Positions 9,780-10,346 of a stretch of 13,469 nucleotides of DNA are shown one piece after another; within the stretch, counting starts at the first letter, position 1, and the number at the start of each line of letters is the position of its first letter. Below the pieces are notes generated by a model. That model was not told the origin of the DNA and made no database searches. It saw only the letters and a list, made by a program, of their open reading frames with translations. Source of the DNA: a virus (Duplodnaviria > Heunggongvirae > Uroviricota > Caudoviricetes); IMG/VR virus record IMGVR_UViG_2548876855_000021; one strand, 5' to 3'. The position numbers and the translations under genes were made by a program.

Positions 9780-10346
9780 TTAAACAGGATAAAAACCAGA
9801 GCTTCCATTCTTATTTAAGTTATGGATTTTATTTGCATCATTAATTTTTATTTGGAACGTCGGACCTTTATTCTCAAGAATTACAATCTGGAAATTATAG
9901 TCCCTTTTGATTAATGCGTGATAAAATGAATCACTGAGACTGACGCTATTAACATCCGATAGAGAACCCCCTCTATCTTTATCAAAGTGCGTCACTAATG
10001 GACTATCAAGCACAACAAATCCAATGAATGGATTCCCTTTTCTTGATAAAAATTCCGCAAAGCAAATGGTAAATATAGCATGCATTACTGCACGGGTACC
10101 TTTACCAAACATTCCTCGGCGTTTCCCATTGATATTAAAGTCATATGTATCTTCGTCAAATCGCACTTTGTTATCTTTAGAATTTTCAAAATTTATATCA
10201 TTCAAAAAGTCTTGCATCGCTATTTCTATATCATACAAATCAGCTACTGTTAAGGAGTCAAAGTCCTCGGCGGAGTATTTAAGTTCGTCAACATCATCTT
10301 CTTTATCTTGTAATGAAGATAGAATGCTATGTTTTGTGTGATCCAT
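9780..10346 (-). CDS. C-terminal head segment of an SMC/Rad50-like ABC ATPase (signature-like and Walker B-like motifs); possibly a fragment of a split or pseudogenised gene
   Basis: 188-aa ORF with ATG start overlapping an upstream stop as TAATG. MFGKGTRAVMHAIFTICFAEF followed by GFVVLDSPLVTHFD resembles the ABC signature helix then Walker B (hhhhD), but with Ser where the catalytic Glu is expected. Same reading frame as the two upstream ATPase ORFs. Confidence 0.55.
   Translation of the reverse strand: MDHTKHSILSSLQDKEDDVDELKYSAEDFDSLTVADLYDIEIAMQDFLNDINFENSKDNKVRFDEDTYDFNINGKRRGMFGKGTRAVMHAIFTICFAEFLSRKGNPFIGFVVLDSPLVTHFDKDRGGSLSDVNSVSLSDSFYHALIKRDYNFQIVILENKGPTFQIKINDANKIHNLNKNGSSGFYPV

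What the first reader, a model, noticed from the sequence alone, without database searches (positions are those of the whole stretch)
9780..10346. Walker B-like motif with Ser in place of the catalytic Glu (VVLDSP) in the ATPase C-terminal head
ABC/SMC ATPases normally carry hhhhDE, with the Glu acting as catalytic base. Here the best Walker B candidate reads GFVVLDSPL, and the preceding signature-like element is GKGTR rather than LSGGQ/E. If the alignment is right, the ATPase may bind but hydrolyse ATP poorly (a sensor or clamp role), or the domain is degenerate, consistent with pseudogenisation.
Basis: inference. Interest (0 to 1): 0.4.

Follow-up and report, generated by a model that had tools for sequence, protein, structure and literature searches.

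The report
Lamassu LmuB's native serine Walker B
The odd "VVLDSP" ATP-site motif is real, but it is the normal, conserved and already published form of this motif in one branch of the Lamassu anti-phage ATPase LmuB, sitting here in a copy of the gene that E. coli O157:H7 has recently inactivated by unrelated mutations.

Summary
ORF 9780-10346 (-) encodes GKGTR (10092-10106) and GFVVLDSPL (9996-10022; Ser codon 10002-10004). It is the C-terminal ABC-head half of a short-Lamassu (ABC-3C) LmuB.

Three ORFs (10968-11600, 10428-10937, 9780-10346) are colinear pieces of one 606-codon gene. That gene lies in the defence hotspot of the P4-like prophage Sp2 of E. coli O157:H7, downstream of LmuC (MC2) and a frameshifted LmuA (CTD6).

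The Ser is not decay:
- All 153 aligned homologues carry D[S/T]P (138 S, 15 T, no E or Q); 141 also carry both K and R of GKGxR.
- Intact 606-aa orthologues (Proteus 87%, Pantoea 75% identity) carry the same motifs.
- Profile alignment to solved LmuB (9hqu, E = 2.8e-26) puts the Ser on the natural Gln571 of LmuB's DQP. It puts the Lys on signature Ser536.

The variant is published: short-Lamassu Walker B = hhhhD[Q/S/T/E] (PMC12663957).

The gene is dead for other reasons: a TAA at Leu211 and two 1-bp indels in A-runs. dN/dS against intact orthologues is about 0.1, so inactivation is recent.

Verdict: ordinary and already known. The reading "weak hydrolase, sensor or clamp" is plausible by family analogy. 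The reading "degenerate because pseudogenised" is wrong.

The parts
9780..11600 (-). LmuB pseudogene: 606 codons in one frame, broken into three ORFs (10968-11600, 10428-10937, 9780-10346). It is annotated as pseudogene ECs_0293 in strain Sakai.
   Evidence: The three ORFs hit one PADLOC LmuB model, PDLC03863, at positions 3-199, 230-386 and 428-608 of 610. tblastn to the intact 609-aa P0005 is gapless. Sakai annotation.
11478..11501 (-). Walker A, GGSDSGKT (residues 34-41)
   Evidence: G34, G39 and K40 are invariant in 50 and in 115 full-length homologues. They align to the Walker A of LmuB 9hqu, including K40.
10968..10970 (-). In-frame TAA at codon 211. Intact orthologues have Leu here, so the change is most simply TTA to TAA.
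10620..10631 (-). Zinc-hook CxxC (CEFC, residues 324-327) at the apex of the coiled coil
   Evidence: C324 and C327 are invariant. In the AF2 model this is the loop 319-338 between helices 233-318 and 339-439.
10432..10438 (-). A7 run with one extra A compared with intact orthologues and with Sakai (A6). It puts the next 30 nt out of frame.
10404..10408 (-). A5 run with one A missing compared with intact orthologues (A6). The deletion is shared with Sakai. Together with the A7 run it brackets an out-of-frame stretch exposing stops TGA 10428-10430, TAA 10422-10424 and TAA 10407-10409.
10092..10106 (-). Signature-motif position, GKGTR (residues 499-503). Lys500 aligns with the signature Ser536 of Salmonella LmuB.
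   Evidence: The helix starts at residue 500 in the AF2 model.
9996..10022 (-). Walker B strand plus the start of the D-loop, GFVVLDSPL (residues 527-535). Asp532-Ser533; the Ser codon is 10002-10004.
   Evidence: D532-S533-P534 align to D570-Q571-P572 of LmuB 9hqu. Strand 528-532 in the model.
9870..9875 (-). Glu576-Asn577 at the end of the strand QIVILE, at the expected H-loop position. Asn replaces the switch His.
   Evidence: N577 is present in 115/115 and Q571 in 115/115; position 576 is E in 102 and D in 13. Strand 571-576 in the model. Assignment of the H-loop position is by topology (inference).
9720..9753 (-). Terminator-like hairpin (13-bp stem) 27 nt downstream of the LmuB stop codon
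11593..12051 (-). LmuC (ABC-3C middle component 2), apparently intact at 152 aa
   Evidence: Pfam PF20288 MC2, 6e-30. PADLOC LmuC PDLC03871, 2.5e-36. RefSeq annotation.
12051..13057 (-). LmuA pseudogene: N-terminal effector domain plus CTD6. A 1-bp deletion at about 12650/12651, next to an A-run, splits it into a 138-aa and a 205-aa ORF.
   Evidence: PADLOC LmuA PDLC03852 at positions 10-140 and 141-333 of 336. PF20282 CTD6. Indel against intact 335-aa orthologues.
13061..13372 (-). C-terminal remnant of the P4-type integrase. The rest is separated from it by an IS1203 copy just beyond the window.

Best explanation
The ORF is the last third of a recently inactivated lmuB gene. LmuB is the SMC/Rad50-like ATPase of a short, type II Lamassu (ABC-3C) anti-phage system. 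The system (LmuA with CTD6, LmuC of type MC2, LmuB) is carried in the defence hotspot of the P4-like satellite prophage Sp2 of E. coli O157:H7.

In this MC2-associated LmuB clade the residue after the Walker-B Asp is natively Ser or Thr (hhhhD[S/T]PL). The signature motif is natively GKGxRA. Both features are inherited and selected, not products of decay.

By analogy with the solved DQ-type Lamassu complexes (inference), an intact orthologue would work as follows:
1. An LmuB dimer holds LmuC and one LmuA in a sequestered state.
2. It binds DNA ends.
3. It uses ATP binding and head engagement, with at most slow hydrolysis, as a switch that releases LmuA.
4. Free LmuA oligomerises and kills the infected cell.

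In the window's strain nothing of this can work. LmuB carries a nonsense codon and two 1-bp A-run indels. LmuA is frameshifted. The satellite's integrase is cut by an IS element.
For: Identity of the gene:
- PADLOC LmuB, LmuC and LmuA hits are colinear over the fragments.
- Pfam MC2 and CTD6; RefSeq calls the neighbours ABC-three component system proteins.
- The family profile matches LmuB 9hqu at E = 2.8e-26 and Vibrio LmuB 9uxl/9ny5 at about 6e-9.
- An AF2 model of the 87%-identical intact orthologue has pLDDT 86.3 and ABC-head plus coiled-coil topology.
- Foldseek top hits are LmuB structures (9uxh, 9hqu, 9hqx, 9ux7, 9nyg), then Rad50 and SMC.

The motif is native:
- 153/153 homologues have S or T after the Asp, and 141/153 have K..R..[S/T] together.
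- Among 115 full-length members: S533 109 plus T 6, K500 107, R503 112.
- Intact orthologues P0185 and P0188 have identical motifs.
- MC2-linked LmuBs at about 24% identity on E. coli IncF, Klebsiella and Streptomyces plasmids also read LDSP and G[K/Q]GxR.
- Published: short-Lamassu Walker B = hhhhD[Q/S/T/E] (PMC12663957).

Pseudogene status:
- Lesions are mapped against the intact loci L005 and L007.
- All 310 matching records among 5,426 complete E. coli genomes are at least 99% identical, and every record whose annotation was listed shows the ATPase region split into several ORFs; the lesions themselves were checked base by base only in Sakai (Sakai pseudogene annotation).
- dN/dS to intact orthologues is 0.115 and 0.087, against 0.080 for the intact-intact pair.

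Mechanism by analogy: PMC10586767; bioRxiv 10.1101/2025.03.14.643221; bioRxiv 10.1101/2025.06.23.660979; PMC12663957.
Against: - No D[S/T]-type LmuB has been characterised biochemically in the papers I could read. ATP binding without efficient hydrolysis is therefore inferred from DQ-type LmuB and from E-to-Q mutants of other ABC ATPases.
- Lys at the signature-Ser position is awkward for the analogy. The engineered S536R change at the same position blocks head engagement in Salmonella LmuB.
- The Lys500/Ser536 equivalence rests on a sequence-profile alignment. A one-residue shift relative to Rad50 LSGGE cannot be excluded, because model coordinates could not be inspected.
- The effector domain of LmuA has no family assignment here.
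Confidence: 0.9

Rival explanations
1. The Ser and the GKGTR element are degenerate leftovers: mutations that accumulated after the gene died.
For: The gene is a pseudogene, with stops and indels.
Against: - The same residues are found in 153/153 homologues and in intact 606-aa orthologues.
- The window copy keeps every family-invariant residue.
- dN/dS of about 0.1 equals the intact-intact value.
Confidence: 0.02
2. The segment is not an ABC head, or the true Walker B is a canonical hhhhDE elsewhere in the protein.
For: Two hhhhDE-like strings exist: FFCIDE (residues 156-161) and VRFDED (479-484).
Against: - FFCIDE lies in the N-terminal half, in the region aligned to the QPQ (Q-loop region) of LmuB.
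- VRFDED is a strand upstream of the signature helix.
- Neither follows the signature helix, as a Walker B must.
- Profile alignment puts D532-S533 on LmuB D570-Q571, and the fold search returns LmuB, Rad50 and SMC.
Confidence: 0.02
3. The split is functional. The N-head, coiled-coil and C-head fragments are made separately and reassemble, so the 188-aa ORF is a real protein.
For: - Each piece is an ORF with a possible start codon.
- RefSeq annotates them as separate CDSs in many genomes.
- A 188-aa call also exists for Pantoea (P0002).
Against: - The Pantoea 188-aa protein is only a short gene call inside an intact 606-aa ORF (P0188).
- All other relatives are single proteins of about 600-630 aa.
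- The breakpoints differ between O157 strains (A6 versus A7; 196-aa versus 169-aa middle piece).
- The partner LmuA is frameshifted too.
- Sakai annotates the whole gene as a pseudogene.
Confidence: 0.03
4. In intact members of this clade the ATPase is not crippled. The catalytic carboxylate has moved: Glu161 in the Q-loop region, or Glu576 just before the H-loop position. Lys500 and Arg503 of the signature act in trans on the gamma-phosphate. On this reading Ser533 marks a rewired active site, not a weak one.
For: Clade-wide near-invariance of E161 (111/115 E, 3 D), E576 (102 E, 13 D), N577 (115/115), K500 (107/115) and R503 (112/115). The same pattern holds in relatives at 24% identity.
Against: - It rests purely on sequence. 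Model coordinates could not be inspected, so no distances to the nucleotide site are known.
- E161 aligns with the second Gln of LmuB 'QPQ', not clearly with the canonical Q-loop Gln.
- DQ-type LmuBs are slow ATPases, which suggests the family is selected for slow turnover.
Confidence: 0.2

Closest known systems
Short (type II) Lamassu LmuB with a DQ Walker B: Salmonella enterica LmuACB (PDB 9hqu/9hqx) and Vibrio cholerae DdmC/LmuB (9ny5, 9nyg, 9uxh, 9uxl)
   Same: - About 600-660 aa SMC/Rad50-like ATPase with the head split by a short coiled coil.
- Walker A GxSxxGKS/T.
- The Walker B acid after Asp is naturally missing and is followed by Pro (D-x-P).
- Three-gene operon with LmuC and a CTD-bearing LmuA.
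- Full-length profile match at E = 2.8e-26 and best structural matches.
   Different: - Ser/Thr instead of Gln after the Asp.
- Signature GKGxRA instead of GSG[S/A]NW, that is Lys where the signature Ser536 sits.
- The LmuB QPQ region reads [I/V]-D-E.
- Partners are MC2 and CTD6, whereas Vibrio has MC3 and CTD7 (bioRxiv 10.1101/2025.06.23.660979).
- Only about 12-15% identity in the structural alignments.
- The window copy is a pseudogene.
MC2-linked ABC-3C ATPases annotated in RefSeq, e.g. on E. coli IncF plasmid NZ_CP083479.1, Klebsiella plasmid NZ_CP129873.1 and Streptomyces plasmid NZ_CP108553.1
   Same: Same operon (ABC-3C protein, MC2, ATPase). Same motifs: LDSP, G[K/Q]GxR, Q-x4-EN.
   Different: They are only about 24% identical to the window's orthologue group and are intact. 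They are carried on plasmids, not in a P4-like satellite.
Rad50/SbcC and SMC heads
   Same: ABC head fold, Walker A, zinc hook CxxC and antiparallel coiled coil.
   Different: - The canonical hhhhDE Walker B, LSGGE/Q signature and switch His are all replaced, by D[S/T], GKGxR and E-N respectively.
- The coiled coil is much shorter.
- There is no Mre11/SbcD partner.

Membership tests
Lamassu / ABC-3C LmuB (short type) | SMC/Rad50-like ABC head formed by the N- and C-termini, separated by an antiparallel coiled coil; total length about 600 aa | tested here: met
   The reconstructed gene is 606 codons. AF2 of the orthologue shows head strands and helices at 7-200 and 479-594, with helices 233-318 and 339-439 between them. 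Foldseek top hits are LmuB structures. PADLOC LmuB PDLC03863.
Lamassu / ABC-3C LmuB (short type) | Prototypical Walker A, Gx4GK[S/T] | tested here: met
   GGSDSGKT at residues 34-41. G34, G39 and K40 are invariant.
Lamassu / ABC-3C LmuB (short type) | Deviant Walker B, hhhhD[Q/S/T/E] (PMC12663957) | tested here: met
   FVVLD-S. It aligns to D570-Q571 of 9hqu.
Lamassu / ABC-3C LmuB (short type) | CxxC zinc hook at the coiled-coil apex (present in many but not all clades) | tested here: met
   CEFC at residues 324-327; C324 and C327 are invariant in the clade.
Lamassu / ABC-3C system | Operon with a middle component (LmuC) and an effector carrying a Lamassu C-terminal domain (LmuA) | tested here: met
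   PF20288 MC2 at 6e-30 and PF20282 CTD6 at 7.7e-30. PADLOC LmuC and LmuA. Same gene order in the intact loci L005, L007 and L008.
Lamassu / ABC-3C system | Intact reading frames, i.e. a potentially functional system | tested here: not met
   LmuB has a TAA at codon 211, +1 at 10432-10438 and -1 at 10404-10408. LmuA has -1 at about 12650/12651.
Lamassu / ABC-3C system | Protection against phage or plasmids that depends on the Walker A Lys and on the effector | not testable with these tools
   This needs experiments on an intact orthologue.
Canonical ABC/SMC/Rad50 ATPase active site | Catalytic Glu directly after the Walker B Asp (hhhhDE), LSGGQ/E signature and switch His | tested here: not met
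   D-S, GKGTR and E-N at the corresponding positions.
Pfam DUF3732 (PF12532; the name given to the solved LmuB chains 9hqu, 9uxl and 9ny5) | Score at or above the gathering threshold of 25 bits | tested here: not met
   23.2 bits, E = 5.3e-5 for the 188-aa fragment. Full-length clade members score at most 18 bits or nothing. The clade is a sister of DUF3732-type LmuB and is not captured by that model.

The most novel reading that the evidence does not exclude
The MC2-linked LmuB clade may have a rewired nucleotide site, not merely a weakened one. The constellation is:
- Ser/Thr in place of the Walker-B Glu or Gln.
- Lys and Arg in the signature motif. The Lys sits where an engineered Arg blocks head engagement in Salmonella LmuB.
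- An invariant acidic residue in the Q-loop region (Glu161).
- Glu-Asn in place of the Thr/Ser-His switch.

If Lys500 acts in trans as a 'lysine finger', and Glu161 or Glu576 supplies the catalytic base, these Lamassu sensors would engage and hydrolyse ATP by a mechanism not described for any ABC/SMC ATPase.
Probability: 0.15. Interest if true: 0.45.

Novelty: already known. Interest (0 to 1): 0.15.

Why it matters
It matters little for this locus, which is a dead copy of a known defence system and is already annotated as a pseudogene in strain Sakai. The Ser variant of the Walker B motif is already listed for short Lamassu.

The useful outcomes are corrective:
- A non-canonical active-site motif in a pseudogene should not be read as decay without checking intact relatives.
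- The three "hypothetical protein / AAA family ATPase" CDSs in hundreds of O157:H7 RefSeq genomes are one broken lmuB.

Two minor points of wider interest:
- The D[S/T]-type LmuB clade also carries a Lys/Arg signature motif and has not been studied biochemically.
- This is an example of a pseudogenised defence system in a P4-like hotspot, which a 2026 survey reports as rare (PMC13586616).

Tried and rejected
- A word-indexed homologue search with the 188-aa fragment gave only three near-identical hits. One was a 188-aa Pantoea protein that briefly suggested a conserved split. It was resolved later as a short gene call inside an intact 606-aa ORF.
- A look-up of P0002's contig failed.
With a 5-sequence alignment it returned only one Serratia locus, so a broad genome-context census was not obtained.
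- Krishnan et al. 2020, the ABC-3C definition paper, is not held. No supplementary files of PMC12663957 are held, so I could not see which published clade carries D[S/T].
- NCBIfam gave nothing for the C-terminal fragment.
- The LmuA effector domain could not be assigned. Pfam and PDB searches with a single sequence and with a profile gave no significant hit to it, only a marginal hit to an uncharacterised protein over the C-terminal half. Single-sequence AF2 of the 138-aa fragment gave pLDDT 38, which is unusable. Its ERLGGAGDKGRD...NYQCK pattern looks like a PD-(D/E)xK/Mrr-type nuclease, but this is only my reading of the motif.
- Model coordinates are not exposed, so distances from Ser533, Lys500, Glu161 and Glu576 to the nucleotide site could not be measured.

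Full report
**1. What is at the coordinates**

ORF 9780-10346 on the minus strand encodes 188 aa. Its sequence includes ...FGKGTRAVMHAIFTICFAEFLSRKGNPFIGFVVLDSPLVTHFDKDRGG.... From the DNA:
- GFVVLDSPL is 9996-10022.
- The Ser codon (AGT) is 10002-10004.
- GKGTR is 10092-10106.

**2. Genomic setting**

The window is 100% identical to E. coli O157:H7-type chromosomes. The region is the P4-like satellite prophage Sp2 of strain Sakai. It carries a primase-helicase, icd-like, sid, psu and ogr/delta genes. A low-GC cargo block (about 30% GC) lies between ogr/delta and the integrase.

That block is a Lamassu / ABC-3C operon on the minus strand:
- LmuA: 12051-13057 (PF20282 CTD6; PADLOC LmuA).
- LmuC: 11593-12051 (PF20288 MC2; PADLOC LmuC).
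- An ATPase split into three ORFs.

The three ATPase ORFs hit a single PADLOC LmuB model, PDLC03863, at positions 3-199, 230-386 and 428-608 of 610. They lie in one reading frame. They align without a gap to an intact 609-aa homologue. A terminator-like hairpin follows the stop codon.

**3. The gene is a pseudogene, and the lesions are elsewhere**

Intact orthologues exist:
- P0185 (Proteus mirabilis, 606 aa, 87% identity).
- P0188 (Pantoea alhagi, 606 aa, 75% identity).

They sit in operons with a 335-aa LmuA and a 152-aa LmuC. In Pantoea and in two SRA assemblies the position is the same P4-like one, between the integrase and ogr/psu.

DNA alignment to these loci and to Sakai shows the following lesions:
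- A TAA at 10968-10970, where orthologues have Leu211.
- One A lost from an A6 run (10404-10408); this is shared with Sakai.
- One extra A in the run 10432-10438 (A7 here, A6 in Sakai). It restores the downstream frame but leaves a 30-nt out-of-frame stretch with three stops.
- A 1-bp deletion at about 12650/12651 that splits LmuA.

All 310 matching records among 5,426 complete E. coli genomes are at least 99% identical. Every record whose annotation was listed shows the ATPase region as several separate ORFs; I compared only Sakai base by base. Sakai annotates the gene as pseudogene ECs_0293.

After in-silico repair of the two indels, dN/dS against the intact orthologues is 0.115 and 0.087. 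The intact-intact pair gives 0.080. Nearly all divergence therefore predates inactivation, and the decay is recent.

**4. The motif is native to the clade**

An exhaustive HMMER search with the 188-aa fragment found 970 representatives with E < 1e-3. In the alignment of the best 150 plus three close homologues:
- The residue after the Walker B Asp is S in 138 and T in 15, never E or Q.
- The signature-like element reads G K G x R A, with 144-153 of 153 conserved at each fixed position.
- 141 of 153 carry K, R and S/T together.

Among 115 full-length members:
- S533 109 and T 6.
- K500 107.
- R503 112.
- D532 115.

The intact orthologues have the same GKGTR...GFVVLDSPL. MC2-linked LmuBs at only about 24% identity, on E. 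coli IncF, Klebsiella and Streptomyces plasmids, also read LDSP and G[K/Q]GxR. The window copy retains every family-invariant residue. The "degenerate domain" reading is therefore refuted.

**5. Is it really the Walker B and signature position?**

A profile of 50 full-length members matches solved LmuB chains over nearly their whole length: 9hqu at E = 2.8e-26, and 9uxl and 9ny5 at about 6e-9. In that alignment:
- D532-S533-P534 fall on D570-Q571-P572 of Salmonella LmuB. A single-sequence alignment gives the same result.
- G499-K500-G501 fall on G535-S536-G537.

S536 is the residue mutated as the "signature motif" (S536R) in bioRxiv 10.1101/2025.03.14.643221. The Walker A K40 numbering agrees as well.

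An AF2 model of P0185 (pLDDT 86.3) shows the ABC order: signature helix starting at residue 500, strand 528-532 (FVVLD), Ser533, a helix, strand 571-576, then Asn577. Foldseek against the PDB returns LmuB structures first, then Rad50 and SMC heads.

The only hhhhDE-like strings are FFCIDE (156-161) and VRFDED (479-484). Both are in the wrong topological places. Neither refutation condition of the finding is met.

One caveat remains. A weak alignment to Rad50 LSGGE would allow a one-residue shift of the signature equivalence. I could not inspect coordinates to settle this.

**6. What is known**

LmuB proteins "generally" carry a natural Glu-to-Gln change in Walker B (PMC10586767; both 2025 bioRxiv structure papers). 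Salmonella LmuACB hydrolyses about 1 ATP/min, and only with DNA. Its K40I and S536R mutants lose this activity, and S536R loses defence (10.1101/2025.03.14.643221).

Haudiquet et al. state explicitly that long Lamassu has hhhhDD and short Lamassu has hhhhD[Q/S/T/E] (PMC12663957). The Ser/Thr variant is thus already in the literature. What I did not find discussed is the accompanying Lys/Arg signature motif.

**7. Mechanism**

Shown:
- The identity of the gene, the motif positions, the clade conservation and the pseudogene lesions.

Inferred by analogy with the DQ-type complexes:
- In intact orthologues an LmuB dimer sequesters LmuA with LmuC and senses DNA ends.
- It uses ATP-driven head engagement, with slow or no hydrolysis, to release LmuA for oligomerisation and abortive infection.

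Open:
- Whether Ser533 simply lowers turnover.
- Whether the clade has relocated its catalytic groups. Candidates are the near-invariant Glu161, the pair Glu576-Asn577, and Lys500/Arg503.

In O157:H7 none of this operates.

**8. Verdict**

The feature is an already known property of a known family, present here in a dead copy. Interest is low.

Noticed in passing
window 12640-12670 (-): LmuA, the effector of the same operon, is also broken. A 1-bp deletion next to an A-run (at about 12650/12651) splits a 335-aa gene into overlapping ORFs of 138 aa and 205 aa. Its N-terminal domain (ERLGGAGDKGRD...NYQCK) has no Pfam or PDB match.
   Followed up: partly
window 10432-10438 versus L002 (Sakai): There is a strain polymorphism in the A-run: A7 in this window and in the records that matched the window at 100% identity (ERL04-3476, ERL05-1306 and three others), but A6 in Sakai, with a one-base-shorter match in most other O157:H7 records. 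The extra A restores the downstream frame but exposes three stops in 30 nt. In Sakai-type strains the middle fragment is 196 aa instead of 169 aa.
   Followed up: yes
window 11118-11120 (Glu161); 9870-9875 (Glu576-Asn577); 9888-9890 (Gln571): Other clade-invariant head residues deviate from the ABC canon. An acidic residue in the Q-loop region ([I/V]-D-E) aligns to the QPQ of solved LmuB. Glu-Asn sits where SMC and Rad50 have the switch His. Together with Lys500 and Arg503 this suggests a co-varying active-site constellation.
   Followed up: partly
window 2067-3023 (+): A 318-aa ORF lies in a very low-GC stretch (28-34%) between the LysR regulator and the P4-type primase. RefSeq calls it hypothetical. 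It has no significant Pfam or PADLOC hit. [quoted passage not shown]
   Followed up: partly
window 13061-13372 (-) and beyond the window end (L001 13971-15184): The P4-type integrase is cut by an IS1203 copy. The satellite as a whole looks immobilised, and its defence cargo is decaying. A 2026 survey reports that recognisable defence pseudogenes are rare in P4 hotspots (PMC13586616), so this is one of the rare cases.
   Followed up: partly
P0214 (Logan assembly); partial proteins P0157-P0177; hits H3-H5: Other decay variants of the same locus exist. One is a 344-aa LmuC-LmuB fusion that lacks the N-terminal head fragment. Many draft assemblies break inside the middle fragment. Some O157:H7 genomes have an IS1203 inserted within the matched 3.97-kb stretch (window 9500-13469).
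   Followed up: no
H46, NZ_CP044147.1 (E. coli plasmid, 46.9 kb) 34736-36539: An 87%-identical copy of this LmuB sits on a record typed as a plasmid. It matched in three tblastn pieces and is annotated as three hypothetical proteins, so it may be another broken copy or a P4-like episome.
   Followed up: no
window 9720-9753 (-): A terminator-like hairpin with a 13-bp stem lies 27 nt after the LmuB stop codon, between the convergent Lamassu operon and the ogr/delta side.
   Followed up: partly
fold search of model m5b57b349afb6: Bacillus subtilis YydD (integrative model 9a6c, YydD-YydB) ranks second among the structural matches, among the solved LmuB chains.
   Followed up: no
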